Positions 2,378 to 18,101 of a stretch of DNA of 64,000 bases are shown piece after piece. The stretch is taken from IMG/VR virus record IMGVR_UViG_3300002835_000086; one strand, 5' to 3'. Position 1 is the first letter of the stretch, and each line of letters begins with the position of its first letter. The notes beneath the pieces are model-generated. The model searched no databases, was not told where the DNA came from, and was given only the letters and a program-made list of their open reading frames with translations. The DNA comes from a virus (lineage: Duplodnaviria; Heunggongvirae; Uroviricota; Caudoviricetes). A program made the translations under genes and the position numbers.

Positions 2378-2650
2378 ATGGATAACGCAATCGTCATAAA
2401 AAAACTACTACTAGCCCTTTTGAGGAGACAGTACCCCGAAATTGTTGATGTCGTAGTTAGTGTTAGAAAGGACCCTATGTTAGAATATCGCACAGATTAT
2501 TTTATCTACATTGGAGTCGCTTATAAGGACTTGTTAAATATCAATGCAAGTAAAATGATGAACGATGCCAGAGAAATTGTTTACGATGTTGCAGGAGGAA
2601 GAAATAGTTTTAATAGCGTTTCAATTCAAACCTATGACCCGAATAATTAA
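2378..2650 (+). CDS. hypothetical protein
   Basis: 90-aa plus-strand ORF, convergent with 2647..3078. Confidence 0.35.
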   Translation: MDNAIVIKKLLLALLRRQYPEIVDVVVSVRKDPMLEYRTDYFIYIGVAYKDLLNINASKMMNDAREIVYDVAGGRNSFNSVSIQTYDPNN

Positions 2651-3078
2651 GTTGTTGAATTAATCGACTCAGCAATCATCTTTTTAAATTTTGTCGTACT
2701 CCATCCGTGAGAACGATTTAAATAATGAATGTCAATTGGAAGTTCCTTACCAGTAAAGTCTTTATCTTTGTAATCATCACCCAGGAATCTCACACCAGGA
2801 CTTACTTTCAAAATAAGTTCAACCAATTCTTTTTCTGTTGTGTAGGTTGAGACCTCATTAACGTATTTAAGTGATAACAACATTTTGACTCTCTCCTCAA
2901 CACTTAGGATTGGTTTTAACTTCTCAGGTCTTTCGATGGTTGGGTCAGTGTGCAACAACACGTGGACCCAATAACAATGTTCTTTCATCTCTTTGAACAT
3001 CTCGATATATCCAGGATGGATAACATCAAAATTACCAGCAATCACACCAATACTATACTTCTCACTATTTGGTTTCAT
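2647..3078 (-). CDS. cytidylyltransferase-family nucleotidyltransferase (TagD / RfaE domain II-like)
   Basis: N-terminal GxFDxxHPGY motif (GNFDVIHPGYIEMF) followed by VHVLLHTD, matching the HxGH nucleotidyltransferase fold of glycerol-3-P cytidylyltransferase and ADP-heptose synthase. Confidence 0.6.
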   Translation of the reverse strand: MKPNSEKYSIGVIAGNFDVIHPGYIEMFKEMKEHCYWVHVLLHTDPTIERPEKLKPILSVEERVKMLLSLKYVNEVSTYTTEKELVELILKVSPGVRFLGDDYKDKDFTGKELPIDIHYLNRSHGWSTTKFKKMIAESINSTT

Positions 3079-3087
3079 AAAATAAAA

Positions 3088-3486
3088 TTAAAAATGGTTC
3101 CTATAAAAATAAATTATGTCAGGAAACCTCTCAAATATCTTTGCCGTGACATCACATAACCACAGGTCTAAATTATAATCTATCGAGTAAATTGATGGTA
3201 ACACATACCAAGCACCACCAATTTCTTTTTTACCGTCTTTAGTCTTAATCAAAGTGTATGATGCTTTCATTTTCTCATCCGACAAGGTACACTTGAACTC
3301 ACTATCACCTTGAGCAATTAATTCACAGAGATAGTCAGCACCTGATATCATCTCGAGTTCGTCAATATCACCTTCCCATTTGGGAATGTCCACAAACCAT
3401 CTGCTTTCAGGGGTTTTATAAAATCTATATGTTACTTCCATATTCTTGAGATTTGTTTTCTCAGAGGGGTTTTTATAATTATACAT
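3088..3486 (-). CDS. hypothetical protein
   Basis: 132-aa ORF. Confidence 0.45.
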   Translation of the reverse strand: MYNYKNPSEKTNLKNMEVTYRFYKTPESRWFVDIPKWEGDIDELEMISGADYLCELIAQGDSEFKCTLSDEKMKASYTLIKTKDGKKEIGGAWYVLPSIYSIDYNLDLWLCDVTAKIFERFPDIIYFYRNHF

Positions 3487-3504
3487 TATTAAAAAAAAAG
3501 TTTC

Positions 3505-3550
3505 AACTTGTTTGGGTAGATTAAACGGTAAAAACTTATATTTGTGGGTA
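3505..3550 (+). promoter_or_regulatory. Bacteroidetes-type promoter (TTG ... TATATTTG) upstream of the 3564 gene
   Basis: TATATTTG at 3537-3544 matches the TAnnTTTG -7 element, about 20 nt before the ATG at 3564, with a TTG about 30 nt further upstream. Confidence 0.4.
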
Positions 3551-3563
3551 TTTATCTTTAACT

Positions 3564-4457
3564 ATGAGTGATTACAGACAATATATTACGGAATCCGTAA
3601 ATTTGCGTGACTATTTAACAGATTCTGATTACGAGATTATATTTTATGATATGTTGAGGGATTTTGCCTTCGAGAGAAATCCAAAGTTATCTCGTAGAAT
3701 CAATATGTCATATCTAATGACTAATTTTTTAGATAGTTTTATTAAACACTATAATTTGGATAAGAATAAAACACGTTATAGTCCAAGAGGTATTCCTGCA
3801 ATTTATGGTCGTGAACTTTATGACGCAGGTTTATATGAAGTATCAATTTATTCACCTGAGAAAAAATTTACAGACACGTTCAAAAGATATTTAAATTGGT
3901 CAATATCAAAAATGAATATACCTAAAGAAGTTAATTACACCGTAACTGAAGAAATACCTAATAATGTAGAATTCCGTACATTTATAAATTATGAAGATAT
4001 TGTTAAATCAGGCCAAGTAAATCCCGAAATTTTAAAATACACGTCTCGTTCATATTCATCTCCATTTAACAAATTAGTTAGTGACTTGAAGTCTGAGCTA
4101 AACCTAAAGAAGGGTAACCCAACTGAAGGAGGTATACAATTTAACGTATACGAAACAGAATATACTGGCCGTCAGGAGTGGACTCAAAAATTCCTTAAAC
4201 AACTTAGAAAATTTGTCAAGTCAAACGAGTTTTTAAAAGACAAGGTTAAAGCAATTAAACTAAAAGAAAACAACTACAGAATGAACCTCGACATAATTTT
4301 AAATAACCCTGACCAATACACATCTTGGCATAGTCGTAGTGAAAATAGAGAAAAATTACAAAATATTTTCACCGTTATTAAAGATTACATTGAAGGTGAA
4401 GGATATAGTTTATCAGTATTTGAAATAGATTCACCTACTATGAGAAAACACTTTTAA
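3564..4457 (+). CDS. hypothetical protein (plus-strand island with its own promoter and terminator)
   Basis: 297-aa ORF on the opposite strand to its neighbours, bracketed by the promoter motif and a bidirectional terminator. Confidence 0.55.
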   Translation: MSDYRQYITESVNLRDYLTDSDYEIIFYDMLRDFAFERNPKLSRRINMSYLMTNFLDSFIKHYNLDKNKTRYSPRGIPAIYGRELYDAGLYEVSIYSPEKKFTDTFKRYLNWSISKMNIPKEVNYTVTEEIPNNVEFRTFINYEDIVKSGQVNPEILKYTSRSYSSPFNKLVSDLKSELNLKKGNPTEGGIQFNVYETEYTGRQEWTQKFLKQLRKFVKSNEFLKDKVKAIKLKENNYRMNLDIILNNPDQYTSWHSRSENREKLQNIFTVIKDYIEGEGYSLSVFEIDSPTMRKHF

Positions 4458-4462
4458 ATAAA

Positions 4463-4492
4463 AACCCCCACTTTAAGTGAGGGTTTTTTGTT
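4463..4492. terminator. bidirectional rho-independent terminator (CCCCCAC...GTGAGGG family)
   Basis: aaaacccccactttaagtgagggtttttt lies between the convergent genes 3564..4457 (+) and 4493..4714 (-). Confidence 0.65.
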
Positions 4493-4714
4493 TTACCAAG
4501 ATTCAACATCAGTTAAATCAATTTCAACCTTAGCCAGGTGACTATAAACCACAAGACCATTTCCAATTCCTGTTGGAGTTATTTTCCAAGTGAATGTACC
4601 ATATTCTCCATAAATCGCTTTAATGTGTGATAACCATTCGTCATACATTTCCTGTTGTTTCTCATTAAGTTCCTCGTGAATTACAGTTTTTCTTATTTTA
4701 TTCTCTTCCATCAC
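4493..4714 (-). CDS. hypothetical small protein
   Basis: 73 aa; ATGA overlap with the RNA ligase gene upstream. Confidence 0.4.
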   Translation of the reverse strand: MMEENKIRKTVIHEELNEKQQEMYDEWLSHIKAIYGEYGTFTWKITPTGIGNGLVVYSHLAKVEIDLTDVESW

Positions 4715-5724
4715 TTCTCGTTTAATAAGAATTTATTACTGATTGCTTTGAAACTTATTTTGGTATCGTAAGACCTAACCACAACACCTTCACGTTCAGT
4801 ATTCCTGTTTAATACGGAACTACCTTCAGCATATTTTAACATACCTTCAACAGAATTTGGTAACAAGAAGTCCATCTCCAAGAAAGGAACATAATCAAAA
4901 CCACAATTCTCCATAAGGTCAACAAACTTTGGCATAGTATATCTAACACCATTATCAATGTCAAAGGCGTTGAAGAACTTTACCATCTGACCTTTAATTT
5001 TGTATGGGTTACCCTGAATACCTTCACCAATTAATTCACCTTGTAAACAAACGTTTTTGCCCAATGAACTTAACTTTTCTTCTATGTTCATTTCACGAGC
5101 AACTTTCCAAAAAGTATTACCTTCAGTTTCTAAAAGTTCCAAATTACGAGAACAAACACCAAACTCACCTTTTCTAAAGTAGAATGTTGCAGATGAACCA
5201 TCCAACTTTTCAGTTACGTAAAATTTGTGTTCACTCCTGTAACACATCGCAGAGTATTCAACAGAGATGTTCTGAACCCTTTCCTCATCAGTTTTGTGTA
5301 AGAACGATGGGAACGGACCTTTGACTTTACCAGCAAGTTCTGCGGGGATTGGTGGTTCGTATTTAACGATACCCAATCTCTCGGTAACATCAAGACCCTC
5401 ATAAGCTGTCCAACCAAAGTCCCCGAAGACACTCATAGGTAAGATTAAACCTTGTGAAACTTGTCCACGAAGTTTAATGGTTTTTAAACGGAAACCTTCT
5501 TGGTCACCCATTTTTTTGTAAGACGATTTACGCAAGAACTCGAAATCTTCTTTGATTGGTAGGAATGAATCAATCTCACAGTATACACACAAGTCACCAG
5601 GTTCGTATTCACCTTTCTTGGTAACAACCTTCCAACCTCCTACAACGGCAACTTCAATCGCATCGGCTCCGACGATTTCTTGGATGTCAGTAACTTTTCT
5701 AATAGACGCTAATTTTCTTTCCAT
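4711..5724 (-). CDS. ATP-dependent RNA ligase (RNA_ligase / Rnl family nucleotidyltransferase)
   Basis: Nucleotidyltransferase motif I as VTEKLDGSSATFYF (the K-x-DG lysine adenylation site), in a 337-aa protein of typical phage RNA ligase length. Confidence 0.75.
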   Translation of the reverse strand: MERKLASIRKVTDIQEIVGADAIEVAVVGGWKVVTKKGEYEPGDLCVYCEIDSFLPIKEDFEFLRKSSYKKMGDQEGFRLKTIKLRGQVSQGLILPMSVFGDFGWTAYEGLDVTERLGIVKYEPPIPAELAGKVKGPFPSFLHKTDEERVQNISVEYSAMCYRSEHKFYVTEKLDGSSATFYFRKGEFGVCSRNLELLETEGNTFWKVAREMNIEEKLSSLGKNVCLQGELIGEGIQGNPYKIKGQMVKFFNAFDIDNGVRYTMPKFVDLMENCGFDYVPFLEMDFLLPNSVEGMLKYAEGSSVLNRNTEREGVVVRSYDTKISFKAISNKFLLNEK

Positions 5725-5750
5725 ATGTTTTTTTTACAAACATACGGATT

Positions 5751-6440
5751 TTATCTGATTTTACCAACACTAAACCCGTCGCTATCTACAACAATCCCTG
5801 TTCTTTTGAAGAAATTTTCATAGAAGTAGTCATTTAATTCATCTTGTATCTCCATACTAACTTCCCATCCAATCTCCTCATCATTAACAACATCTTTCAA
5901 ATTTCTAGGTTCATAGTCACCTGTCATAACTAAACTAACAGTACCATCTACGATTGCCCAAAAATCAATTCGTTTTAAATCTTCATTTACGTGGTAGTTT
6001 TTTATTTTGAAGTCAAAGTTGTATCCACCACTTTCTACGTGATGTTTTGATAACAAAAAGTCTAAATTATTTTTAATTATATTATCAAAACCACCCAACA
6101 CATTTCTAATTAAAATATGACGAGCTTTTTCAAGAGTCATCCCATTTTTACCAATAAAAAACTCTTTGAATGTGTCATCCAATAAAGGTCGTTTAGTTAA
6201 AACTCTTTTAACAGTCTCATCGAATGATGTGTCTTCATTGATTGGATTTGGTTGGTTATCGTGCCAACACTTATGACAAATGTATGTGTCATCACCACCT
6301 TCAGATATCTTCCAAGACCACCCACAATTATCACATATAACCTCACCATTCTCAACTTTTTCGGTAAGTAATGTCATAACTTGTTTTATACGTGAAATGT
6401 CTTCAGATAGTCTCATATTAATAAATATCCCTATCACCAA
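5751..6440 (-). CDS. hypothetical protein with N-terminal zinc ribbon
   Basis: CDNCGW...CHKCWH motif near the N-terminus; otherwise unrecognised. Confidence 0.45.
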   Translation of the reverse strand: MVIGIFINMRLSEDISRIKQVMTLLTEKVENGEVICDNCGWSWKISEGGDDTYICHKCWHDNQPNPINEDTSFDETVKRVLTKRPLLDDTFKEFFIGKNGMTLEKARHILIRNVLGGFDNIIKNNLDFLLSKHHVESGGYNFDFKIKNYHVNEDLKRIDFWAIVDGTVSLVMTGDYEPRNLKDVVNDEEIGWEVSMEIQDELNDYFYENFFKRTGIVVDSDGFSVGKIR

Positions 6441-7153
6441 TAACCAACATCTTTCTTAAAATGCTCAATGTTGTGTCTGTTAAAATAGTTGCTTATTACC
6501 AATCTAATCATTCCAAAATACCCCATCTTTAGAAATCTACGATTATCTTGCCCAACATAGTGTTTTGATATTTGGAACTTTTTTGGACTGTATTGTTTAC
6601 TGAGATGATAATCTTCTGAGTGTTGGAGCGTTTCATCGAACCCATCTGTACTGAAGAACGCACTACGAGTTGTCATAAAATAAGTCCCTAACGCAAACGG
6701 AACTTTCTTTTTCATAATGTGATTAATCCTGTTGAAAATCTTAAATATCATTTCACATTTAACATCACCATTTATACACCTAACATTACAAGTCAACAAA
6801 TCAAGGTTGTTATCCTCCATTTGTTTTAACGTGTCTTTTATTTGATTTGGGTTTAATAACGTTGAGTCAGCATCAAGGAATAAAATATATGGTGTAGTAC
6901 TTCTCATCGCACCTTGATTTCTCCCGTAAGCTACAGGACCACCATTAATCAACTCAATTTTGATTGTTGGCTCATAATAAGTTTTTAAAGACTTAACTAA
7001 GTCTCTTGTACCATCGGTGCTCTTAGCGTCTGCGACAATAACTTTAGTTCCCCAAATCCCATTTTGTGAAGCGATACTTGTAATTGTAGCATCAATATAC
7101 TTCCATTCATTATAGGATGGTATCACAATTGTTAGTTTATCTTTAATACTCAT
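6434..7153 (-). CDS. family 2 glycosyltransferase (GT-A fold)
   Basis: N-terminal LTIVIPSYNE, VIVADAKSTDGT and a LFLDADSTL DxD motif, classic GT2. Confidence 0.75.
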   Translation of the reverse strand: MSIKDKLTIVIPSYNEWKYIDATITSIASQNGIWGTKVIVADAKSTDGTRDLVKSLKTYYEPTIKIELINGGPVAYGRNQGAMRSTTPYILFLDADSTLLNPNQIKDTLKQMEDNNLDLLTCNVRCINGDVKCEMIFKIFNRINHIMKKKVPFALGTYFMTTRSAFFSTDGFDETLQHSEDYHLSKQYSPKKFQISKHYVGQDNRRFLKMGYFGMIRLVISNYFNRHNIEHFKKDVGYW

Positions 7154-7832
7154 TCAATTCAAATTTTCCGTTATTATAAATAATGTAGGATTTGTTTTCA
7201 ATCCAATCACCACAGTTAAGATAATGAACATCACTCACCATCTTATCAGATGGTTGATGTATGTGTCCACAAATCACTGTATCACATCCTCTCTTTTTCG
7301 CTTGGTAAGCCAATTGTTTCTCAAAGGATGTCATAAATTGTACCGCCTCTTTAACACTGTCTTTAAGGTATTTAGATAATGAAAACTTCATACCCATACC
7401 TTTTAGTTTTCTATCGACATAAATTGCTAAGTCATATCCCATTGAACCGATAACACCTAACCATTTCCACTTGACAACACCGTCATATAAATCACCGTGT
7501 GTTACAAAAACATTTTCACCAAACTTATATTCGTTGACGATTTTTATGTTACCGAAATCAATATCATCATACGACCTTAAGAAGTCATCGTGATTACCTG
7601 ATACGTAAATAACCTCAGTCCCATTCTTTGAGTAAGATAATATCTTTCTAATCACGTTTGTGTATGATTGTTTCCAATAAAATCTTTTTTTAAGTAACCA
7701 TCCATCTATAATGTCCCCCACCAAAAAAAGATATTTTGGTTCATACTTTTTAAGGACTTCAATTAGTTCTTCAGCGTTTACTCCTCGAGCACCCAAGTGA
7801 ACATCTGAGATAAACAACGCATCAATTTTCAT
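7143..7832 (-). CDS. calcineurin-like metallophosphoesterase (LpxH-like architecture)
   Basis: ISDVHLG ... GDIIDGW ... GNHDDF ... GHIHQ metal-binding motifs. Confidence 0.7.
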   Translation of the reverse strand: MKIDALFISDVHLGARGVNAEELIEVLKKYEPKYLFLVGDIIDGWLLKKRFYWKQSYTNVIRKILSYSKNGTEVIYVSGNHDDFLRSYDDIDFGNIKIVNEYKFGENVFVTHGDLYDGVVKWKWLGVIGSMGYDLAIYVDRKLKGMGMKFSLSKYLKDSVKEAVQFMTSFEKQLAYQAKKRGCDTVICGHIHQPSDKMVSDVHYLNCGDWIENKSYIIYNNGKFELNEY

Positions 7833-8049
7833 ATAACATTTTCATATATTTTTGTTTAATACCAATAGCTCTCTTTTTGTCAGAAAAGCTAACTTGGTTC
7901 GTCGATACGATACTTATAAAATCTTCAACATCACTGTCTTCAATATTTTCAAATATGAACGCAAGTTCAGTGTCATTCAGTCCATATGACTTTTTTAAAT
8001 ATTCATCAACAAGGTCGAAAAAAAACTGACTATCTTCTTGACTAACCAT
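7822..8049 (-). CDS. hypothetical small acidic protein
   Basis: 75-aa ORF, overlaps neighbours by a few nt in operon style. Confidence 0.35.
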   Translation of the reverse strand: MVSQEDSQFFFDLVDEYLKKSYGLNDTELAFIFENIEDSDVEDFISIVSTNQVSFSDKKRAIGIKQKYMKMLYEN

Positions 8050-8284
8050 TGAGTAATTCTTTTTCTCGTTTATTCATAATCTCCGACAATTTGTTTTCAT
8101 AAACTGTATGAAGTTCAAGGTTACACTGATATTGTAAATCATAATCGACTTTTTTATCTCGACTAAGATTTTTATCGTATAGAGTAATCAGTCTGTTTGC
8201 AGAATGAAGTTGTTTGAAATTTTCACAAGAGTTGATTACTTTAATAACCCAGTTCTTTAAATCTCCGTAGTGATTGCTAATCAT
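8042..8284 (-). CDS. hypothetical small protein
   Basis: 80-aa ORF. Confidence 0.35.
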   Translation of the reverse strand: MISNHYGDLKNWVIKVINSCENFKQLHSANRLITLYDKNLSRDKKVDYDLQYQCNLELHTVYENKLSEIMNKREKELLNG

Positions 8285-8374
8285 ATTAGTATAAATATTA
8301 AAATTGTTAGTGGTTCCAGTAAATTAACGTAAGGGTAATATTGAATCATCTTACCTTCTATATGTCCAATCATA

Positions 8375-8650
8375 TCATAAGTTGTTTAAAACCGCCTCCA
8401 ACATTTGGATGGCTTCTTTATCCTTCTTGGTCTTAACTTCTTTACTCTTGAGGTATTCCAAAGACGCAATAACCTCATCCTTCTTACTCATATTGGTATT
8501 CGCCGGCAGGTTATGAGTGTGTCCCATAACCGAACTGTAGGTGCGTTCAGGTAGGTCACCACCTTCATAAAGAACTTTATAAATTGTTGCAGTCATCACA
8601 GGGTCCTTGATGATTCTGTTAAGGAAATAAAAGGTAAGTAGTTTCTTCAT
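8375..8650 (-). CDS. hypothetical small protein
   Basis: 91-aa ORF. Confidence 0.35.
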   Translation of the reverse strand: MKKLLTFYFLNRIIKDPVMTATIYKVLYEGGDLPERTYSSVMGHTHNLPANTNMSKKDEVIASLEYLKSKEVKTKKDKEAIQMLEAVLNNL

Positions 8651-8851
8651 ATTGCTAAGATAGAAAAAATATTTTGATTAACCAAAATTATTCTTATTCC
8701 CATCTCCAATTATGTTGGTTCTCCACCAATTGTTAAACTTGGATTTTGGGAATACTCGGGCATTTTTTTCTAACACGACACCCAAAAATGATATCAGAAT
8801 AACAAACCCATAAAAAAATAAAATATAAACTAACGCGGTATTATTCATTCA

Positions 8852-9253
8852 TTAAAGTTTAATCTCAAATCTATCTCTCATAGATTGTAATTTATCTTCA
8901 GGAACACCGTGAGCGTTTACTCCACCGTGACGATTTTCTACGATGATTGAAAACACCTTGTAATCCCAATCTTTTGCCATATCAATGTAACTCTGCATTT
9001 CCCACTCCTGTGTAAATGTATTTGATACAACTATCACATTGTTCAACCCTGCGGTGTGATTTAAAATCATTGCAGTATTAACACTGTGTTGACACCACTC
9101 GTGGGCGTCTCTCAATTTAGAACCATCGAACTTATATTCACCATTGACCATAAAGTATTGGTCAGTCTCAAAGTGAGTCCCCCCCAAGTTTTTTGCCAAT
9201 GTTGATTTACCTGAACCAGGGACACCTCTAACTAAGTATAAAATCTTTTCCAT
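8852..9253 (-). CDS. P-loop kinase (AAA_33 / polynucleotide-kinase-like)
   Basis: Walker A GVPGSGKST at the N-terminus; at 133 aa it is the size of the stand-alone kinase modules that accompany RNA ligases. Confidence 0.6.
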   Translation of the reverse strand: MEKILYLVRGVPGSGKSTLAKNLGGTHFETDQYFMVNGEYKFDGSKLRDAHEWCQHSVNTAMILNHTAGLNNVIVVSNTFTQEWEMQSYIDMAKDWDYKVFSIIVENRHGGVNAHGVPEDKLQSMRDRFEIKL

Positions 9254-9590: not shown

Positions 9591-10040
9591 TTAAATCAAT
9601 TCCATAGAATTGATTTGGTCACCTTGTTGGAGTTGGTCAATGATATCAACACCTTCAACAATCTTCCCAAAACAGGTATGATTACCGTCCAAGTGTTGGG
9701 TGTTCTGTCTATTGTGACAGATAAAGAACTGTGAACCTCCTGTGTTACGACCAGCGTGTGCCATTGAAAGAACACCTTTATCGTGGAATTGTTTTGGCGC
9801 TGTTACTTCACATTGGATTGTGTATCCAGGTCCTCCATTTCCAACACCGTTAGGACAACCACCTTGGGCAACAAATCCAGGAATCACTCTATGGAAATTA
9901 AGTCCGTCATAGAATTTCTTGTTAATCAAACTCTTAAAGTTTTCTACCGTGATTGGAGTTTCGTTGTCATACAACTCCGCAATCATATCACCTTTTGCTG
10001 TTGAGATTTTTACTTTACTCATATATCTTGTTTTTAACAA
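9591..10040 (-). CDS. cyclophilin-type peptidyl-prolyl cis-trans isomerase
   Basis: FHRVIPGFVAQGGCP.G.GNGGPGY, SMAHAGRNTGGSQFFI and LDGNHTCFGKIVEG match the cyclophilin signature regions. The true start is probably the Met at residue 7. Confidence 0.9.
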   Translation of the reverse strand: MLKTRYMSKVKISTAKGDMIAELYDNETPITVENFKSLINKKFYDGLNFHRVIPGFVAQGGCPNGVGNGGPGYTIQCEVTAPKQFHDKGVLSMAHAGRNTGGSQFFICHNRQNTQHLDGNHTCFGKIVEGVDIIDQLQQGDQINSMELI

Positions 10041-10975: not shown

Positions 10976-10979
10976 AAAG

Positions 10980-12063: not shown

Positions 12064-12073
12064 ACTCGTTTTT

Positions 12074-12103: not shown

Positions 12104-12287
12104 AGTGTGTTGGCTAGGTTTTCTTCAATAAAGGTTTTAATGAGTTTTAAGGTTTGACTCTCTCAGTGATTTTTGAACAGGTGAACAATCTAATTTTTGA
12201 ATACTTTAACGTCATCAATTATCTAATGGATAGTAGAGTTTTTATGTAACTAAATCTCCAAAAACACCAACCAAACACAACTTTCTT

Positions 12288-12722
12288 TTACAACGTTTTT
12301 GTCGCGTTGTATGTGTCTAACTCATCCTGAAGAGCATCAATCTCGTCTTCATAAGACTTAACCATCTTGTCTCGGGCGCTAGCGCTGATAACTACATTAT
12401 AGTTCAACAACATTGATTCACCATAACCTCTACGACTAACGTTACCCTCTTGGGTATCCATTTTCTTCAAGGTCTTAACCAAATTTTTCAATTCAGACAA
12501 ACGGAAAATCTTGTCATAAACTTCATTATTCGCCCTGTGGATTGCAGTCTTCAATTCAATCAATTGGTTAGTTTCTTCCAACAAACTCTGCAATTCTGTC
12601 TGTGGGTCATAACTACGGATGGCTCCTTCGATAACTGAGTTATCTTTTTCAATTCGAACAATTCTCTCATTGATACTTTTCACCAATCGAGCTTTTTGTT
12701 TTAGTGCTTGTTTAATCGTCAT
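12288..12722 (-). CDS. hypothetical coiled-coil protein
   Basis: 144 aa, heptad-like charged sequence. Confidence 0.45.
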   Translation of the reverse strand: MTIKQALKQKARLVKSINERIVRIEKDNSVIEGAIRSYDPQTELQSLLEETNQLIELKTAIHRANNEVYDKIFRLSELKNLVKTLKKMDTQEGNVSRRGYGESMLLNYNVVISASARDKMVKSYEDEIDALQDELDTYNATKTL

Positions 12723-12761
12723 AATCTTCTATTTAAGTTTTACAAATATAAATGTTTTTTA

Positions 12762-13430: not shown

Positions 13431-13469
13431 AGGACAAAGGTAAAATAAAATATAGATTAAATCAAAAAA

Positions 13470-14264
13470 TTACGCGATTTTTTCAAACTTAGATAAAGTT
13501 TCACTTGCTTTAGAACGTGCCATACCTGATGAACCACCAGCATTCAAGTCAGCAAAATAGTTAGACGCGTCTTTTTCATTATCAAATTTAGGAAGTGAAT
13601 TTGGTGATTTACCTTTTAACATAAAGGCAATTGCAACTTTGGCAGCTACTCTTGGGTCATCTAATGAATCAGGATTACCTTCAAGGTTTTCACCAACAAG
13701 ACTACCATATTTTTTGTAGTTCGCTCTACCTGTTAGTCCATTGAACCCTCTACCTCTGTATTTGTATCCATCACCAGGTTCAGTGTTACCCAATCTGATA
13801 CCTGATTTGTACCCATACATATATTCAAAAAAGTCCTTATTACTTTTTTTAAGTCTCGTTAACTGTCTATCACTTAACCTTTGGGCTCTTTTACCAAAAA
13901 TACTTCTGATTCTATCGTTACTTGTATTACCGTAACCAATTTCAGAACCCATCTGAAAACCAGATTCTTTGGCCAAAACACTTAATATACCAATTTGAGT
14001 ATCAACATCAGTAATACCCATTTTATTCATTTCATCTATCACGATTTCTACGTTTCTGCCGGCTTCACCACTATAACTGTGTTTGATTTTACCATTATCG
14101 GAAACTTCAAGGTCGTCGGTTTTAACCTCATCACCTTTTGGTTTCTCTTCAGGCGCAAATGCTGAAAGGGTTTTTAAAAAATCGGCAAGTCTCCCAATAG
14201 CTTGTTCATTTAAACCCATAAGTCTAAACTGCTTATTAACTTCTTTCAAAAGTGGTTTTGACAT
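13470..14264 (-). CDS. glycoside hydrolase family 19-like lysozyme/chitinase (candidate endolysin)
   Basis: ILSVLAKESGFQ and YRGRGFNGLTGRANYKKYG match the GH19 catalytic-region motifs HETGG and GRGPIQLTGRANY. Confidence 0.6.
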   Translation of the reverse strand: MSKPLLKEVNKQFRLMGLNEQAIGRLADFLKTLSAFAPEEKPKGDEVKTDDLEVSDNGKIKHSYSGEAGRNVEIVIDEMNKMGITDVDTQIGILSVLAKESGFQMGSEIGYGNTSNDRIRSIFGKRAQRLSDRQLTRLKKSNKDFFEYMYGYKSGIRLGNTEPGDGYKYRGRGFNGLTGRANYKKYGSLVGENLEGNPDSLDDPRVAAKVAIAFMLKGKSPNSLPKFDNEKDASNYFADLNAGGSSGMARSKASETLSKFEKIA

Positions 14265-14295
14265 AATATTTTTATCTATAAATATACAATTACAA

Positions 14296-14312
14296 AGTAT
14301 TTATCATATATC
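14296..14312 (+). promoter_or_regulatory. TAnnTTTG -7 promoter element upstream of the 14324 gene
   Basis: TATATCTTTG sits about 20 nt before the ATG. Confidence 0.35.
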
Positions 14313-14323
14313 TTTGATTCATT

Positions 14324-14611
14324 ATGGCCGACAGGAATTTTTATATGAGAAGAGTATTGACCAAAATTGTAAAAAATATGGTTAGTAAAAATCCTGCATT
14401 CAAAAATATTCGTTCAGTTGAAATACAATTCTTACTTAAATCTCCTGTTAGAAGCGCAATGTGTGATTGGGTTTATGGTCTTACTATCAAGACATATAAC
14501 GATGATGTTAACCAACCTCAAATAATTTCTCAAATAAAAGAAAGAATTGATTCTGTTACATCACAACTAACAAAAGACACTTTCTGTCTCACCGACTATT
14601 ACTTCGAGTAG
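14324..14611 (+). CDS. hypothetical protein
   Basis: 95-aa plus-strand ORF with an upstream promoter motif. Confidence 0.4.
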   Translation: MADRNFYMRRVLTKIVKNMVSKNPAFKNIRSVEIQFLLKSPVRSAMCDWVYGLTIKTYNDDVNQPQIISQIKERIDSVTSQLTKDTFCLTDYYFE

Positions 14612-15726
14612 TCGTATTTACGAAAAATCCCATCTACCGTATGTAACGCTTGAGCAACCACTTGGTGCATATCATAATAAGCATAGGTCCCAAGTCTACC
14701 CCCAAATATGTATTTAGATTCAGACTCTGTCAATGATTTATATTTTTCATAAATCTCAACATTTTTACCGTCTCTGATTGGGTAATATGGTTCGTTCTCA
14801 CCAGTATACTCACAAGAGTATTCCTTACTGATATAAGTACCTTTTTGATTCTTAGGGTCAAACCATTTATGTTCTAATATTCGAGTATACTTAGTATCAG
14901 AATCAGTAAAATTCATTACAGGGTTTCCTTGGAAGTTGTCAACTTCTAATTGGTAATTCTCCCATCTAAGACTACGATATTCCAATCGACCAAATTCGTA
15001 ATCGTAAAACTTATCAATTGGTCCTGTGTAAATTATCTTATCAGATAAAGACTCAAGGATATCTCTATTCTCAAAAAAATCAAATTCAGTCAGTACTTCA
15101 ATACCTGATAGTAGTTTTTCAAAAATTTGGGTATAACCTCCGTCAGGAATTCCTTGGTACTTGTCATTGAAATAATTGTTATTCCAAGTAAATCTAACAG
15201 GTAATCTTTTAATAATGGATGGTGGTAGTTCAGAACATTTCTTATCCCATTGTTTCTCAGTATAACCTTTAATCAACTTTTCATATATGTCAGTCCCTAC
15301 CATTGAAAGAGCTTGTTCTTCCAAATTAGTGATAGGTCCCTTATATTTTTGTTCATCAATCATATACTGTGCCTTTTCAGGTGTGTTAACACCCCACAGT
15401 TGATTGAATGTCCACATATTGAAAGGTAATGAGTAAATCTCACCCTTATAGTTAGCCAAAGGTGAATTAACAAACTGATTAAAAGTTGCAAATCTGTTTA
15501 CGTAGTTCCAAACTCTTTCATCATTAGTATGGAATATGTGAGCACCATACTTGTGAACGTGTATACCGTCTATATTTTCAGTATAACAGTTTCCACCGAT
15601 ATGATTTCTTTTTTCAACAACTAATACGTTGAATTTCTTACTTAGTTCGTGGGCGCAGATTGCTCCAAAGAGACCTGCCCCCACGATTACAAAGTCATAA
15701 TGTCTATAGGAAGTCAAAAACGACAC
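14599..15726 (-). CDS. glf: UDP-galactopyranose mutase (makes UDP-galactofuranose)
   Basis: N-terminal FAD-binding fold DFVIVGAGLFGAICAHEL; the 375-aa length and overall sequence pattern are those of Glf. Confidence 0.8.
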   Translation of the reverse strand: MSFLTSYRHYDFVIVGAGLFGAICAHELSKKFNVLVVEKRNHIGGNCYTENIDGIHVHKYGAHIFHTNDERVWNYVNRFATFNQFVNSPLANYKGEIYSLPFNMWTFNQLWGVNTPEKAQYMIDEQKYKGPITNLEEQALSMVGTDIYEKLIKGYTEKQWDKKCSELPPSIIKRLPVRFTWNNNYFNDKYQGIPDGGYTQIFEKLLSGIEVLTEFDFFENRDILESLSDKIIYTGPIDKFYDYEFGRLEYRSLRWENYQLEVDNFQGNPVMNFTDSDTKYTRILEHKWFDPKNQKGTYISKEYSCEYTGENEPYYPIRDGKNVEIYEKYKSLTESESKYIFGGRLGTYAYYDMHQVVAQALHTVDGIFRKYDYSK

Positions 15727-16861
15727 TGTCAGGAGATAATACAGGTTTATTAATCTTGTTCTCTAATCTTTCTTTGAACTCATACAAGAAGTTAGATGAA
15801 TTAGTATAACATCTATCCTCAATCAAGAAACACAAATTAGGATATGGGTTTTCTCTACCTTCATTAATCATTTGTTCAACAACCTCAAGAGCTTCTTTGT
15901 TCCTTTGTCTTTTCTCATAAAAGAATGCCAAATACATCAAGTGTTCATTTCTTGTTGGAGAGAACGGTCCTGCAGATTTGTAGTGTTCTTCCGCTTTATC
16001 ATACTCCCCTCTAAAGTTATATGCTTCACCCAAAAGTATAAATGTTAGATATGACATCTCATCTAATCTTGCAGGTTTACCAGTATTAAACCAGTTGTGA
16101 TTAAGTGCTAAAAACTTATTAAAGTAGAAAATCGCTCTACGAGCATATTCGTCTGAGTGGTCCTTTCCAAATGCAAGTTCATCAGGATTTCCATAACAAT
16201 CAGCATAACTCTTACCAACATACCAAAGATGATACATATCCTCATTGATGGTGTTTCCAACAACTTTGTCAATTTCTAATTCCAAAGCATCTCTCAAAAA
16301 CTTTCTTGGTGCAAACCAAGTCTGACCATCATTTGTGATTAAGTGTCTAAATCCAAAAGGTAGAACCATTCTTTGGAAATTTTCACCGACTTCAGGTAAG
16401 TGAATTGTTTCGTGTCTTTTATCGTGTTGAAAAAACCAAGGTCTTTTTGCATTCCATAACCAAGTTCTGTAATACTTTGTACCCATTGCCTGAGCTGTAA
16501 TGTTGAATGAATCAATTGAAGTGTCTTCCAATACAGTCCAATCAAAGTCCTCATCAACAATTAGTTGTTCATCAGCATCCATTCTCAGAATCCAATCACA
16601 TCCGTGGTCAGCCTTCAAACATTCCTGTAAGGTATGGTCTCTATTCCATCCTGGATATTGCCATTCAATCTCATACAGGAATCCAGGAATCCCTTTTTCT
16701 TTGAAGTAGTTTCTTATAATGTCTTGTGTTCCGTCAGTAGACCCATTGTCCTGTATAACCCAATAATCAATATATTGGAAACAGGAGTCTAACATTCTTG
16801 TGATAGTTCTGGCCTCATTAGCCACCATCGCGTTTAAGCAAATTTTGGTTTTTTTATTCAT
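15704..16861 (-). CDS. family 2 glycosyltransferase with C-terminal TPR-like region
   Basis: GT-A N-terminus (CLNAMVANEARTI...IQDNGSTDGT) and an ILRMDADEQL DxD motif. Confidence 0.65.
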   Translation of the reverse strand: MNKKTKICLNAMVANEARTITRMLDSCFQYIDYWVIQDNGSTDGTQDIIRNYFKEKGIPGFLYEIEWQYPGWNRDHTLQECLKADHGCDWILRMDADEQLIVDEDFDWTVLEDTSIDSFNITAQAMGTKYYRTWLWNAKRPWFFQHDKRHETIHLPEVGENFQRMVLPFGFRHLITNDGQTWFAPRKFLRDALELEIDKVVGNTINEDMYHLWYVGKSYADCYGNPDELAFGKDHSDEYARRAIFYFNKFLALNHNWFNTGKPARLDEMSYLTFILLGEAYNFRGEYDKAEEHYKSAGPFSPTRNEHLMYLAFFYEKRQRNKEALEVVEQMINEGRENPYPNLCFLIEDRCYTNSSNFLYEFKERLENKINKPVLSPDSVVFDFL

Positions 16862-18101
16862 AAATGTAATTCATTACTTGTTCTTGTTTATAGTATTTTT
16901 TGATTGGGACACTGTTTTGGAACTTTTGTGAGTGTTGTGTAATCTCATCCCAATTCCAATCAAAATAACCCATTTCTTCAATTCTGTCGTGTATTCTTTT
17001 ATCATAGAAGTCCCTGATTAATCTGGCCCTACGATTAATATCTGTTGCATTATTATCAACTGTTGAGTTGTTATTGTTGTATTGTAGATATAACACCTTC
17101 TTTACGTGAATCATCTTGGTTTCTAAAAATGTACGAATAAGAATCTCCAAGTCATCAGCAACAGGTGTTAATTTATTGTGTCCTGAAATATTATGATAAA
17201 CACTTCTCTCCCACATTCTAGCGTGGTTTGGCATTGTGATATTGAATCTAATTGTGAGTGGGTTTACATCAGGGTACCAATGAGCAAGTCTATCAACACC
17301 GTCAACATTTACCCAACTGTGTCCAGCATACCCAAAGTCAAAATAGTTATCGTGACGAGCATACCAATTACCAGTCCAATCGTGGTCATAAAACTTAGGT
17401 TCACCGTCCTCGTATATCTCTGAACAATCAGTATAAAGAAATCCCGCGTCAGGGTATTTTAATATTGCATCATTAGCGGTTTCAAGACAAGTTGTAACCA
17501 AACAATCATCGTGGTCCAATTCAATCAACCAATCACCATCACCTAACATAGCTGCACGATGTTTAGCCAAACCAATATTACCACCCGATAATGGATAAAT
17601 CCTGTGAGGTTTTACCCGATAGTCTTTCTCCGCAATTTCAGTTATCATCTCCCAAGTTTCAGGGTCAGGCGAATCATCAACCACAACCCATTCCCAATTA
17701 TCAAAGGTTTGGTTGTTTAAAGACTCATAAGTCCTATAAATCCTTTCTCCTGTTTTGTAGGTTGGTGTGAAAATTGTAAATCTTGGTCTAAAATATTCAC
17801 AGTTTCTAAACACAGTCTGACAAACAATTACGTTCGCCAAAATTGCTTCATCAATCGGTTCATCATAGTGAATGTGAAATCTTTTCAAATGATAGTGTGG
17901 GATGTTTACTTCTTCACCAAAACTTATAATTAAGTCAGGTTTATATTTTGTATAATCACCAACGACATCGTTTGTATATGGTAGATTATAAACAACAACA
18001 TCATCAAACAGATGTTCTTCCCAGTATATTTGTGAGATTAAGGTTGTTTCACCTTCCGTACCTAATCCATACACTATTGCTGACGGTTTTTTTGTCTTCA
18101 T
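16854..18101 (-). CDS. family 2 glycosyltransferase with N-terminal extra domain
   Basis: FTIFTPTYKTG ... VVVDDSPD ... LDHDD motifs typical of GT2. Confidence 0.65.
   Translation of the reverse strand: MKTKKPSAIVYGLGTEGETTLISQIYWEEHLFDDVVVYNLPYTNDVVGDYTKYKPDLIISFGEEVNIPHYHLKRFHIHYDEPIDEAILANVIVCQTVFRNCEYFRPRFTIFTPTYKTGERIYRTYESLNNQTFDNWEWVVVDDSPDPETWEMITEIAEKDYRVKPHRIYPLSGGNIGLAKHRAAMLGDGDWLIELDHDDCLVTTCLETANDAILKYPDAGFLYTDCSEIYEDGEPKFYDHDWTGNWYARHDNYFDFGYAGHSWVNVDGVDRLAHWYPDVNPLTIRFNITMPNHARMWERSVYHNISGHNKLTPVADDLEILIRTFLETKMIHVKKVLYLQYNNNNSTVDNNATDINRRARLIRDFYDKRIHDRIEEMGYFDWNWDEITQHSQKFQNSVPIKKYYKQEQVMNYIYE

What the first reader, a model, noticed from the sequence alone, without database searches (positions are those of the whole stretch)
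2647..18101. Glycan-building cluster (Glf + 3 GT2 + cytidylyltransferase): possible glycosylation of the Thr-rich collagen fibres or virion
UDP-galactopyranose mutase makes UDP-galactofuranose, a sugar used only in glycoconjugates. It is followed directly by two GT2 glycosyltransferases, with a third GT2 and a sugar-nucleotide cytidylyltransferase-like gene nearby. A phage has no cell wall of its own, so the targets are either virion proteins or the host surface. Giant-virus collagen fibrils are glycosylated by virus-encoded GTs. In Pro-poor invertebrate collagens, galactosyl-Thr in the Y position substitutes for hydroxyproline. The fibre proteins here are Pro-poor and full of G-X-Thr triplets, so virion fibre O-glycosylation with Galf is a concrete, testable hypothesis.
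Basis: inference. Interest (0 to 1): 0.55.

Follow-up and report, generated by a model that had tools for sequence, protein, structure and literature searches.

The report
Phage sugar cassette tied to collagen fibres
A freshwater giant phage carries a three-gene sugar-attaching cassette that, across its relatives, occurs only in genomes that also encode collagen-like fibres, so the phage probably sugar-coats its own fibres, which has not been shown for any phage.

Summary
The genes are real, but the "cluster" is smaller than claimed. The core is a 3.5-kb operon on the minus strand: GT2 (415 aa), then GT2+TPR (385 aa), then UDP-galactopyranose mutase (14599-18101). The third GT2 and the cytidylyltransferase-like gene lie 7-11 kb away in other gene contexts and are not shown to belong.

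The window comes from an uncultured freshwater jumbo-phage family with genomes of about 310-326 kb. In relatives the trio is a clean insertion in a variable island. On 27 contigs that reach both sites (14 lineages), a cassette is present exactly where collagen-like fibre genes are present 16-45 kb away. This needs at least 3 joint gains or losses.

Other evidence points the same way:
- The GT2+TPR model is most like the peptide glycosyltransferases SunS/ThuS, and its only glycosyltransferase (catalytic-domain) sequence hit in PDB is the flagellin glycosyltransferase GmaR.
- It has the architecture of C. difficile SgtA, which glycosylates Thr in collagen repeats.
- Two relatives carry a prolyl-hydroxylase-like gene plus the GT2 instead, and have the most Pro-rich fibres.
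- In two unrelated phages, homologues sit beside collagen-like fibre genes.

Fibre O-glycosylation is the best reading (about 0.5) but is unproven. Host-glycan and DNA glycosylation remain rivals. The fibres are mostly G-A-Gln; Thr fills 21% of Y positions.

The parts
16854..18101 (-). GT2 glycosyltransferase, 415 aa, first gene of the cassette. It has an N-terminal domain of about 100 aa with no known family, then a GT-A domain with DDS and D196-H-D198 motifs. It has no transmembrane segment.
   Evidence: PF00535 E=8e-16. Profile against PDB: chondroitin and heparosan synthases, TarS, TarP. Invariant residues. Highest 19-residue Kyte-Doolittle hydropathy is 1.01. Its homologue pairs with a prolyl-hydroxylase-like gene in L270 and L284. 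The AlphaFold model is poor (pLDDT 61), so its fold hits are only generic GT2.
15704..16861 (-). GT2+TPR glycosyltransferase, 385 aa. It has a GT-A catalytic domain (DXD = D95-A-D97) and a C-terminal helical/TPR domain. It is the proposed protein O-glycosyltransferase and the likely user of UDP-Galf.
   Evidence: Pfam GT2 and TPR hits. AlphaFold pLDDT 82.9. Foldseek against PDB puts SunS/ThuS first at E=1e-12 over the full length, then RmlT/TarS/TarP at 5e-7. The only GT sequence hit in PDB is GmaR, 4e-4 with the single sequence and 1.5e-5 with the profile. It is adjacent to Glf in 47 of 51 viral loci.
14599..15726 (-). UDP-galactopyranose mutase (Glf), 375 aa. It makes UDP-galactofuranose from UDP-galactopyranose.
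   Evidence: TIGR00031 scores 400 bits, above the 304-bit cut-off. PF03275 E=1.9e-75 and NAD_binding_8. The N-terminal GAGLFG dinucleotide-binding motif is present.
18110..18173 (-). Terminator-like hairpin (18156-18173, GGTCCTCGAAAGAGGACC followed by a T-run), then a weak promoter-like site (18110-18138). Both lie between the conserved upstream gene and the first cassette gene.
   Evidence: Consensus scan. The hairpin has 7 pairs, 5 of them G-C. The promoter match is no better than chance.
34141..37425 (-). Collagen-like fibre 1 (1094 aa), a proposed acceptor. It has 297 G-X-Y triplets and a C-terminal chaperone-of-endosialidase-like tail.
   Evidence: Translation and triplet counts: Y=Gln 231, Y=Thr 34.
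37418..40840 (-). Collagen-like fibre 2 (1140 aa), a proposed acceptor. It has 298 triplets, 84 of them with Thr in Y (116 Thr in all).
40844..44422 (-). Collagen-like fibre 3 (1192 aa), a proposed acceptor. It has 292 triplets, 66 with Thr in Y, and a C-terminal Peptidase_S74 chaperone domain.
   Evidence: PF13884 E=7e-14.
2647..3078 (-). Cytidylyltransferase-like protein, 143 aa, TagD/RfaE-domain-II-like. Whether it belongs to the system is doubtful. It has HPGY in place of HxGH, and RSHGWSTT resembling the RTEGISTT signature.
   Evidence: PF01467 E=4e-11, with NCBIfam equivalog scores far below their cut-offs. PDB hits are ECT and TagD at 4e-10 and 4e-9. Sequence. Homologues lie 1.2-4.4 kb downstream of Glf in 7 relatives, but its closest relatives sit in unrelated contexts.
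6434..7153 (-). Third GT2, 239 aa. It is probably not part of the cassette. It overlaps a metallophosphoesterase (7143-7832) and a 229-aa ORF (5751-6440), upstream of an RNA ligase (4711-5724).
   Evidence: PF00535 E=1.5e-24. ORF overlaps. The metallophosphoesterase-GT2 pair is conserved in L037, on the opposite strand to that genome's cassette.

Best explanation
The three-gene operon (GT2 415 aa, GT2+TPR, Glf) is a soluble, cytoplasmic protein O-glycosylation cassette. It decorates the phage's own three collagen-like fibre proteins before or during assembly.

Proposed steps:
1. Glf converts host UDP-galactopyranose to UDP-galactofuranose. The enzyme's identity is shown by family membership; its activity is inferred.
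2. The GT2+TPR enzyme uses its TPR domain to hold the repetitive fibre chain and transfers sugar, most likely Galf, to hydroxyl side chains. The most plausible sites are Thr in the Y position of G-X-Thr triplets, of which there are 184. This step is inferred from the fold, the architecture and the constant pairing with Glf.
3. The 415-aa GT2 adds a second sugar or primes other sites. The order of action cannot be determined here.

The glycan would stabilise or hydrate the Pro-poor triple helices and mask them. That physiological role is inferred from BclA/BclA3 and from invertebrate collagens, not from anything tested here.

The third GT2 and the cytidylyltransferase-like gene are not needed for this model.
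For: 1. Cassette anatomy. The coding regions overlap, a terminator-like hairpin lies upstream, and none of the three proteins has a transmembrane segment.

2. The cassette is an accessory insertion. Module-minus relatives have the conserved p290 gene followed directly by p144 (L230, L241, L260, L297-L300). Module-plus relatives have the trio in that island.

3. Co-occurrence with the fibres.
- The fibres are a second accessory insertion, between p340 and p444.
- Among contigs that reach both sites: collagen+/Glf-cassette+ 14, collagen-/cassette- 10, collagen-/cassette+ 0, collagen+/Glf-cassette- 1.
- The one exception carries a variant cassette at the same site.
- On a p444 tree pruned to 27 informative tips (14 lineages), 'any cassette' equals 'collagen' at every tip. 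This needs 3 changes.

4. The variant cassette is a 2OG-Fe(II) oxygenase of the prolyl-hydroxylase type overlapping a homologue of the 415-aa GT2.
- The oxygenase has the HxD...H...R motif, and its PDB hits are HIF- and P4H-type prolyl hydroxylases.
- It occurs in two relatives (L270, L284).
- Their fibres have the highest Pro in X, 60% and 34%, against 9-27% in nine Glf-type genomes.

5. The GT2+TPR model is closest to the peptide glycosyltransferases SunS/ThuS over its full length (E=1e-12; next class 5e-7). Its only GT sequence hit in PDB is the flagellin O-GlcNAc transferase GmaR.

6. C. difficile SgtA has the same plan (358 aa, GT-A followed by four TPR). It adds O-GlcNAc to Thr in the GPT collagen repeats of BclA3 in vitro (PMC7157674).

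7. Independent physical linkage in two other phages.
- In L023, two Ser/Thr-rich collagen-like genes lie 5-8 kb upstream of DUF6445, the 415-aa-type GT2 and GT2+TPR, on the same strand.
- In the cultured phage Tunturi_5, the 30%-identical gp35 lies 3.7 kb from tail-fibre gp29, which has G-P-T/G-A-T runs of up to 28 triplets.
Against: - There is no direct evidence that any protein is glycosylated.
- In the window the cassette is 16 kb from the fibres, among miscellaneous non-structural genes.
- Gln, not Thr, dominates the Y position.
- A distant clade (L031/L034/L036) places GT2+TPR, Glf and a 2OG oxygenase between ribonucleotide reductase, two Mom-family genes and DNA polymerase. That is a DNA-modification-like context.
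- A phage Glf has been proposed to feed DNA glycosylation in Pootjesviridae.
- The co-occurrence rests on one adjacent marker gene, an NJ tree and only 3 inferred transitions. Absence of collagen was checked only at the p340-p444 site, not over whole genomes.
- The Pro contrast has n=2 and its range nearly touches that of the Glf type (34% against 27%).
- Sequence homology to SgtA could not be tested.
- The model of the 415-aa GT2 is poor.
Confidence: 0.5

Rival explanations
1. Host-envelope remodelling. The soluble GT2 enzymes add Galf-containing side branches to a host polysaccharide precursor (LPS, capsule or another glycan of a Bacteroidota host) in the cytoplasm during infection. This would block superinfection or stop progeny binding to debris. 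The cassette would co-occur with the fibres because the fibres bind that same glycan.
For: After SunS/ThuS, the next fold neighbours of GT2+TPR are polymer-decorating GT2 enzymes: RmlT, TarS and the prophage-encoded TarP. These are also the neighbours of the 415-aa GT2. Galf is best known from bacterial surface glycans. Published work usually attributes aquatic phage GTs to O-antigen modification (PMC7029224). Co-occurrence with receptor-binding fibres fits this reading too.
Against: - There is no GtrA/GtrB-type membrane component and no transmembrane segment.
- The TPR-bearing GT is closer to the peptide GTs (1e-12) than to TarS/TarP/RmlT (5e-7 or weaker).
- The variant cassette swaps in a prolyl-hydroxylase-type enzyme, which acts on proteins, not polysaccharides.
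- Nothing in the window indicates that the phage is temperate.
Confidence: 0.17
2. Glycosylation of other phage proteins, such as capsid, tail tube or decoration proteins, as in mycobacteriophages. The collagen link would then be only a correlate of phage type.
For: Virion glycosylation of capsid and tail-tube subunits is established for mycobacteriophages (Freeman et al. 2023, as cited in PMC12619734). The protein-GT-like fold fits any protein acceptor. In L045 the GT pair lies next to neck-protein and terminase genes.
Against: - The strict presence/absence coupling is with the fibre genes specifically, while the surrounding core genes are shared by cassette-minus relatives.
- No other large Ser/Thr-rich ORF exists in the window.
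- Capsid and tail genes lie outside the window and could not be examined.
Confidence: 0.15
3. DNA hypermodification. Glf and the GTs attach galactose-containing glycans to a modified base in virion DNA to evade restriction, as proposed for Rhizobium phage RL38J1 and other Pootjesviridae.
For: PMC13326640 proposes that a phage-encoded Glf supplies UDP-Galf for glycosylated 5-hydroxycytosine. In the L034 clade, GT2+TPR and Glf sit with a 2OG oxygenase, two Mom-family genes, ribonucleotide reductase and DNA polymerase. Oxygenase-plus-GT pairs also fit a hydroxylate-then-glycosylate route on DNA bases.
Against: - No thymidylate-synthase-like base synthase was found among the window ORFs scanned with Pfam.
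- No DNA glycosyltransferase appears among the top 50 PDB fold matches.
- The oxygenases are of the P4H family (PF13640), not the TET/JBP family.
- DNA modification gives no reason for coupling to the presence of fibre genes.
- The DNA methyltransferase and nucleotide-kinase genes near the cassette are present in cassette-minus relatives as well.
Confidence: 0.08

Closest known systems
Clostridioides difficile SgtA with BclA3 (exosporium collagen-like glycoprotein)
   Same: SgtA is a soluble enzyme of about 360-385 aa with an N-terminal GT-A/GT2 domain and C-terminal TPR repeats. It initiates O-glycosylation of Thr (and Ser) inside G-X-Thr collagen repeats (PMC7157674). The acceptor is a surface fibre with a Pro-poor or Thr-containing triple helix.
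   Different: SgtA uses UDP-GlcNAc and is encoded immediately upstream of its substrate gene. Here the donor is probably UDP-Galf, the substrate genes are 16 kb away, the system is viral, and a second GT2 and Glf are co-transcribed.
SunS/ThuS glycocin S-glycosyltransferases (PDB 7msn, 7msk)
   Same: They are the best full-length structural match (E=1e-12, TMq 0.52-0.57). They have a GT2 catalytic domain followed by a helical TPR-like domain that recognises a peptide substrate.
   Different: The TIGR04195 score is 18 bits against a cut-off of 350, so this is not a family member. Identity is 15-17%. No glycocin-type precursor peptide gene lies next to it. SunS forms S-linkages to Cys.
Listeria GmaR, the flagellin O-GlcNAc transferase
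   Same: It is the only glycosyltransferase in PDB detected by sequence (4e-4 with the single sequence, 1.5e-5 with the profile; residues 11-104). It is a GT2 that glycosylates Ser/Thr of a filament protein.
   Different: The match is weak and covers only the N-terminal part of the catalytic domain. GmaR is also an anti-repressor and uses UDP-GlcNAc.
Mimivirus and animal collagen modification (lysyl/prolyl hydroxylase plus glycosyltransferase)
   Same: A virus encodes collagen-like proteins together with enzymes to modify them. The variant cassette in relatives (prolyl-hydroxylase-type 2OG oxygenase plus GT2) mirrors the hydroxylate-then-glycosylate logic (PMC8968730).
   Different: The window's own cassette has no hydroxylase. 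The sugar would go directly on Thr, the host is a bacterium, and the GT families differ.
Mycobacteriophage virion glycosylation (Freeman et al. 2023)
   Same: Phage-encoded GTs glycosylate the phage's own structural proteins (as cited in PMC12619734).
   Different: There the acceptors are C-terminal extensions of capsid and tail-tube subunits. No collagen-like acceptor, no Glf and no TPR-bearing GT were reported in the text read here.
Pootjesviridae (Rhizobium phage RL38J1) Glf and DNA glycosyltransferases
   Same: It is the only described functional proposal for a phage-encoded UDP-galactopyranose mutase (PMC13326640).
   Different: That system depends on a ThyA-like 5-hydroxy-dCMP synthase and on DNA GTs. 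Neither was found in the window, and the GTs here look like protein GTs.

Membership tests
UDP-galactopyranose mutase (Glf, TIGR00031 / PF03275) | Full-length match above the curated equivalog cut-off | tested here: met
   400.4 bits against a cut-off of 303.75. PF03275 E=1.9e-75.
UDP-galactopyranose mutase (Glf, TIGR00031 / PF03275) | N-terminal FAD-binding Rossmann motif (GxGxxG) | tested here: met
   VGAGLFGA at residues 14-21. NAD_binding_8 E=1.9e-23.
UDP-galactopyranose mutase (Glf, TIGR00031 / PF03275) | Interconversion of UDP-Galp and UDP-Galf | not testable with these tools
   Needs an enzyme assay.
GT2 / GT-A glycosyltransferases (both cassette GTs) | PF00535 match and a conserved DXD metal/nucleotide-sugar motif | tested here: met
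   PF00535 E=9.8e-8 and 8.4e-16. D95-A-D97 is invariant in 28 sequences. D196-H-D198 is invariant in 26 sequences.
SunS-family glycocin S-glycosyltransferases (TIGR04195) | Sequence score above the family cut-off | tested here: not met
   18.2 bits against a cut-off of 350.
SunS-family glycocin S-glycosyltransferases (TIGR04195) | GT2 plus helical/TPR two-domain fold | tested here: met
   Foldseek top hits are 7msn and 7msk at E=1.4e-12 over about 386 columns.
SunS-family glycocin S-glycosyltransferases (TIGR04195) | Adjacent small Cys-containing precursor peptide and export/immunity genes | tested here: not met
   The only small neighbouring ORF (14324-14611, plus strand) has no glycocin-like features. 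No transporter is present.
SgtA-type collagen-repeat O-glycosyltransferases | GT-A domain followed by C-terminal TPR repeats in a soluble protein of about 360 aa | tested here: met
   385 aa, GT-A at about residues 1-230, helical/TPR at about 232-371, no transmembrane segment. SgtA architecture is from PMC7157674.
SgtA-type collagen-repeat O-glycosyltransferases | Encoded next to its collagen-like substrate gene | tested here: not met
   In the window the fibres are 16 kb away. This feature is met in L023 (5-8 kb away, same strand) and in Tunturi_5 (3.7 kb away).
SgtA-type collagen-repeat O-glycosyltransferases | Detectable sequence homology to SgtA | not tested
SgtA-type collagen-repeat O-glycosyltransferases | Transfers sugar to Thr/Ser in G-X-Y repeats | not testable with these tools
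   Needs a peptide assay or mass spectrometry.
Phage DNA-glycosylation systems (5-hydroxy- or 5-hydroxymethyl-pyrimidine plus DNA GT) | ThyA-like base synthase or TET/JBP dioxygenase encoded by the phage | tested here: inconclusive
   None was found among the window ORFs scanned with Pfam. But the window is only 64 kb of a genome of about 320 kb.
Phage DNA-glycosylation systems (5-hydroxy- or 5-hydroxymethyl-pyrimidine plus DNA GT) | GT resembling a known DNA glycosyltransferase | tested here: not met
   No DNA GT appears in the top 50 PDB fold matches of GT2+TPR or of the 415-aa GT2 (low-confidence model).
Gtr-type O-antigen modification modules of temperate phages | Membrane proteins GtrA (flippase), GtrB (Und-P GT) and a serotype-specific Gtr | tested here: not met
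   No transmembrane segment in any cassette protein. GtrB appears only as a weak fold neighbour (E about 6e-6).
'Moraphage' lineage of freshwater jumbo phages (PMC12619734) | Jumbo genome, freshwater origin, glutamine synthetase and DnaJ/DnaK homologues, Bacteroidota-like genes | tested here: inconclusive
   Relatives' contigs are 309-326 kb and the sources are freshwater. A GS-like gene lies at 28230-29393 and a DnaJ gene at 48661-49596. One homologue sits in a Saprospirales MAG. No marker-gene phylogeny against the published genomes was done.

The most novel reading that the evidence does not exclude
Tailed phages, and perhaps giant viruses, carry interchangeable 'collagen-finishing' cassettes matched to the chemistry of their collagen-like fibres. 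A Glf plus TPR-glycosyltransferase type would put galactofuranose directly on Thr of Pro-poor G-A-Q/G-X-T helices. A prolyl-hydroxylase plus GT2 type would serve Pro-rich G-P-T/G-P-Q helices. This would be a viral, bacterial-host counterpart of animal collagen post-translational modification, and the first Galf-O-Thr collagen. The GT2+TPR fold is shared at full length with many giant-virus and phage proteins, so the system could be widespread.
Probability: 0.3. Interest if true: 0.8.

Novelty: new variant of a known kind. Interest (0 to 1): 0.62.

Why it matters
Phage glycosyltransferases in aquatic metagenomes are routinely written off as DNA-glucosylation or O-antigen genes. Here comparative evidence points to a specific protein substrate instead. 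If it holds:

- It would be the first case of a phage glycosylating collagen-like fibres.
- It would give a function to a very common viral GT2+TPR protein class.
- It would help explain how Pro-poor, hydroxyproline-free triple helices about 900 residues long stay folded.
- Glycan-coated fibres would affect host recognition, virion stickiness and antigenicity.

It also yields testable material. The three-gene cassette plus a fibre fragment can be co-expressed in E. coli. A cultured jumbo phage, Tunturi_5, has a homologous GT next to a G-X-Thr tail fibre.

Tried and rejected
- **Nucleotide search of the cassette against 50,697 phage genomes.** It found only about 65%-identical glf fragments in Streptococcus suis phages and one Rhizobium phage, with no relative.
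- **PHROGs on ten large neighbouring ORFs.** Hits only for the DNA methyltransferases (26186-27055, 47131-48015), the nucleotide-kinase-like N-terminus of the 27057-28226 ORF, and one family of unknown function (phrog_21628, 28230-29393); none for the other six ORFs.
- **Structure of the 415-aa GT2.** The model is low-confidence (pLDDT 61) and gives only generic GT2 matches, so it says nothing about the acceptor.
- **The cytidylyltransferase as part of the system.** The viral-contig scan gave 3 loci in unrelated contexts. This is left open, not supported.
- **The third GT2 as part of the system.** Rejected on operon context and conserved pairing with a metallophosphoesterase.
- **A glycocin-like peptide substrate.** The small plus-strand ORF beside Glf has no such features.
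- **A clean 'Pro-rich versus Pro-poor' dichotomy.** Only partly upheld. The second prolyl-hydroxylase-type genome has 34% Pro in X against up to 27% in Glf-type genomes.
- **DUF6445 as a 2OG oxygenase.** The HxD...H...R pattern is conserved. But hhalign against the P4H-like profile gives only a local match at 21% probability, there is no PDB hit and no literature.
- **The afdb50 fold library.** It was unavailable.
- **A genome-collection scan for a host.** It gave one hit, in a Saprospirales MAG, which is a hint at best.

Full report
**What is there**

- UDP-galactopyranose mutase (Glf, 14599-15726) is a true family member. TIGR00031 scores 400 bits against a cut-off of 304, and PF03275 gives E=1.9e-75.
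- Upstream in transcription order lie a 415-aa GT2 (16854-18101) and a 385-aa GT2 with a C-terminal TPR region (15704-16861).
- The three coding regions overlap by 8 and 23 nt.
- A terminator-like hairpin sits between the preceding conserved gene and the first GT.
- None of the three proteins has a transmembrane segment.
- DXD motifs are invariant in both GTs.

So the core is a 3.5-kb operon, not a 15-kb cluster.

**The two outlying genes**

The third GT2 (6434-7153) overlaps a metallophosphoesterase and a 229-aa ORF, just upstream of an RNA ligase. The metallophosphoesterase-GT2 pair recurs in a 317-kb relative, on the opposite strand to that genome's cassette.

The cytidylyltransferase-like gene (2647-3078) is TagD/ECT-like. 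It has HPGY in place of HxGH and falls far below every equivalog cut-off. Homologues lie 1.2-4.4 kb downstream of Glf in seven relatives. Its closest relatives, however, are in unrelated contexts. Neither gene is shown to belong to the cassette.

**The fibres**

Three consecutive ORFs (34141-44422) encode proteins of 1094-1192 aa.
- Each has about 295 G-X-Y triplets and a C-terminal chaperone-of-endosialidase (S74) domain.
- They are Pro-poor: X=Ala in 53% of triplets and X=Pro in 11%.
- Y is Gln in 60% and Thr in 21% (184 triplets). 'Full of G-X-Thr' is therefore an overstatement.

**Where the window comes from**

Identical and near-identical proteins occur on freshwater-lake metagenome contigs. 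Relatives in IMG/VR reach 309-326 kb.

The window also encodes a glutamine-synthetase-like protein, DnaJ, a sigma-70 factor, a cyclophilin and an SPFH protein. This matches the published description of the 'moraphage' lineage: freshwater jumbo phages with predicted Bacteroidota hosts. That paper lists four GT orthogroups without assigning a target (PMC12619734). One homologue lies in a Saprospirales MAG. I did not test lineage membership by phylogeny.

**Comparative anatomy of the cassette**

- GT2+TPR homologues were found in 51, then 70, viral loci.
- In 47 of the first 51 loci Glf is adjacent, and in 42 the 415-aa GT2 is too.
- Within the jumbo family the trio sits in a variable island downstream of the conserved gene p290 (18189-19061).
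- In cassette-minus relatives p290 is followed directly by p144 (12288-12722), as in L230, L241, L260 and L297-L300.
- The fibres are a second, separate insertion between p340 (33122-34144) and p444 (45750-47084). Relatives without them have only about 4 kb of unrelated small genes at that site.

**Co-occurrence of cassette and fibres**

I cross-tabulated the contigs that extend far enough to show both sites:

| Collagen fibres | Glf cassette | Contigs |
|---|---|---|
| present | present | 14 |
| absent | absent | 10 |
| absent | present | 0 |
| present | absent | 1 |

- The single exception (the L103/L270 clade) has a different cassette at the same site.
- On an NJ tree of p444 pruned to 27 informative tips (14 lineages more than 10% apart), 'any cassette' equals 'collagen fibres' at every tip. 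The shared pattern needs three changes.
- The genes between the two sites are present in both classes. The coupling is therefore not a single block insertion.

Limitations: one marker gene next to the fibre site, an NJ tree, few transitions, and collagen absence checked only at that site.

**The variant cassette**

In L270-272 and L284 the island holds a 231-aa 2OG-Fe(II) oxygenase whose stop overlaps the start of a homologue of the 415-aa GT2 (51-55% identity). There is no GT2+TPR and no Glf.
- The oxygenase matches PF13640 and has a conserved HxD...H...R motif.
- Its PDB hits are HIF-type, P4H and OGFOD1 prolyl hydroxylases.
- The fibres of these two genomes have the highest Pro content in X, 60% and 34%, against 9-27% in nine Glf-type genomes.

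With n=2 and nearly touching ranges this is only suggestive. Still, a protein hydroxylase paired with the same GT2, in genomes with Pro-rich fibres, is hard to fit to a polysaccharide target.

**What the GT2+TPR enzyme looks like**

The AlphaFold model is good (pLDDT 82.9).
- Against PDB, the six best matches are the glycocin peptide glycosyltransferases SunS and ThuS (E=1e-12, full length).
- The next class is the teichoic-acid GTs RmlT, TarS and TarP, at 5e-7 or weaker.
- By sequence, the only GT in PDB that it hits is GmaR, the Listeria flagellin O-GlcNAc transferase.
- It is not a SunS-family member: 18 bits against a cut-off of 350.
- Its plan is the same as that of C. difficile SgtA (358 aa, GT-A plus four TPR). 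SgtA adds O-GlcNAc to Thr in the GPT collagen repeats of BclA3 in vitro (PMC7157674).
- In the viral structure library the same full-length fold occurs in many giant-virus and phage proteins (TMq up to 0.76).

**Independent linkage elsewhere**

- L023 is a 77-kb contig lacking the jumbo family's marker genes. Two Ser/Thr-rich collagen-like genes are followed within 5-8 kb, on the same strand, by DUF6445, a 415-aa-type GT2, GT2+TPR, a 978-aa GT4-methyltransferase fusion and another GT4.
- Tunturi_5 is a cultured 309-kb Acidobacteria phage. Its gp35 (30% identity over 84% of the query) and a nucleotidyltransferase lie 3.7 kb from the annotated tail fibre gp29, which has G-P-T/G-A-T runs of 9-28 triplets. 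The paper lists gp35 only as an auxiliary gene (PMC11924767).
- In L045 the GT pair lies next to neck-protein and terminase genes.

**Evidence pointing the other way**

- In a distant, probably marine, clade (L031/L034/L036), GT2+TPR and Glf are followed by a P4H-family oxygenase, two Mom-family genes and a GT4. This group lies between ribonucleotide reductase and DNA polymerase B.
- In a cyanomyophage clade (L039/L048, with psbA and pstS) the set is GT2, DUF6445, a distant Glf, GT2+TPR, DUF6445 and a GT2-methyltransferase.
- The only published functional proposal for a phage Glf is the supply of UDP-Galf for glycosylated 5-hydroxycytosine DNA in Pootjesviridae (PMC13326640).

Against DNA modification in this family:
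- No ThyA-like gene was found in the window ORFs scanned.
- No DNA GT appears among the fold matches.
- DNA modification gives no reason for coupling to fibre genes.

But only 64 kb of about 320 kb could be read.

**Conclusion**

The most likely reading (about 0.5) is a cytoplasmic protein O-glycosylation cassette acting on the phage's own collagen-like fibres.
- Glf makes UDP-Galf.
- The TPR-bearing GT2 recognises the repetitive chain and most likely transfers Galf to Thr.
- The 415-aa GT2 adds or primes a second sugar.

What is shown: gene identities, operon structure, the insertion nature of the cassette, the co-occurrence, and the fold resemblance. What is inferred: the acceptor, the residue, the donor used by each GT and the physiological role.

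The rivals are host-glycan remodelling (0.17), glycosylation of other virion proteins (0.15) and DNA glycosylation (0.08).

I found no report of glycosylated phage collagen-like fibres in the literature searched. I therefore rate this a new variant of a known kind, namely SgtA/BclA3-type collagen-repeat glycosylation and phage virion glycosylation.

Noticed in passing
window 4711-9253 (minus strand): A possible RNA-repair-like gene string: an AAA_33 kinase (8852-9253), a metallophosphoesterase (7143-7832), the 239-aa GT2 (6434-7153), a 229-aa unknown ORF (5751-6440) and an RNA ligase with a PHA02142 OB-fold (4711-5724). The metallophosphoesterase, the GT2 and the 229-aa ORF overlap one another; the RNA ligase follows after a 26-nt gap. 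A glycosyltransferase inside such a string is unusual.
   Followed up: partly
window 9591-10040 (minus strand): A cyclophilin-type peptidyl-prolyl isomerase (PF00160, E=8e-42) lies 4.6 kb downstream of the cassette. From general knowledge, PPIases speed collagen triple-helix folding in animals. Among the loci examined it was seen only in the window's near-identical relatives (L052, L055, L056).
   Followed up: no
L270 12067-14000; L284 15069-17002: Two relatives carry a different cassette at the same genomic site: a prolyl-hydroxylase-type 2OG-Fe(II) oxygenase overlapping a homologue of the 415-aa GT2. Their fibres are the most Pro-rich (G-P-T/G-P-Q).
   Followed up: yes
L023 8179-8757; L039 8404-8970 and 11150-11734; L318 694-1269; L045 244-822: DUF6445 proteins repeatedly flank the GT2+TPR or 415-aa-type GT2 genes in other phage lineages. 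They have invariant H-x-D ... H ... R residues, as in 2OG-Fe(II) oxygenases. The family has no PDB relative and no literature.
   Followed up: partly
L034 12191-15713 (also L031, L036): In this clade GT2+TPR and Glf are followed by a P4H-family oxygenase, two tandem Mom-family genes and a GT4, between ribonucleotide reductase and DNA polymerase B. A DruA-like (Druantia) gene lies further downstream.
   Followed up: partly
proteins P0218 and P0265: Some relatives encode a 610-aa version of the 415-aa GT2 fused to SAM-methyltransferase domains. L023 has a 978-aa GT4 with two methyltransferase domains. This suggests methylated sugars in some cassette variants.
   Followed up: no
window 34000-44500: G+C jumps from about 30-35% to 47-57% across the fibre genes. 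The cause is the G-A-Q/G-X-T codon content, not foreign origin. All six frames there contain long spurious ORFs.
   Followed up: partly
window 28230-29393, 48661-49596, 57789-58598: A glutamine-synthetase-like gene, a full-length DnaJ and a sigma-70-family factor. The first two are hallmarks reported for the 'moraphage' jumbo-phage lineage; the sigma-70 factor is not mentioned in the text read.
   Followed up: partly
window 18189-19061: The listed TTG start of the gene upstream of the cassette is probably too far upstream. A strong terminator-like hairpin (18998-19023) lies inside the extended ORF, and gene callers in relatives give 246-279 aa. The protein has a weak DUF6011 match with a CxxC...C motif.
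   Followed up: no
PP885688.1 (Tunturi_5), locus L317 9397-12815: Four tandem paralogous genes of about 285 aa (gp30-33) lie between the collagen-like tail fibre gp29 and the GT2+TPR homologue gp35. Their function is unknown. They could be fibre-associated proteins or assembly factors.
   Followed up: no
L067 19631-20487; L106 19613-20466; L099 20493-21301: Collagen-minus relatives carry an adenylylsulfate-kinase-like P-loop gene followed by an HxGH nucleotidyltransferase-like gene near the DNA methyltransferase. The window lacks this pair.
   Followed up: no
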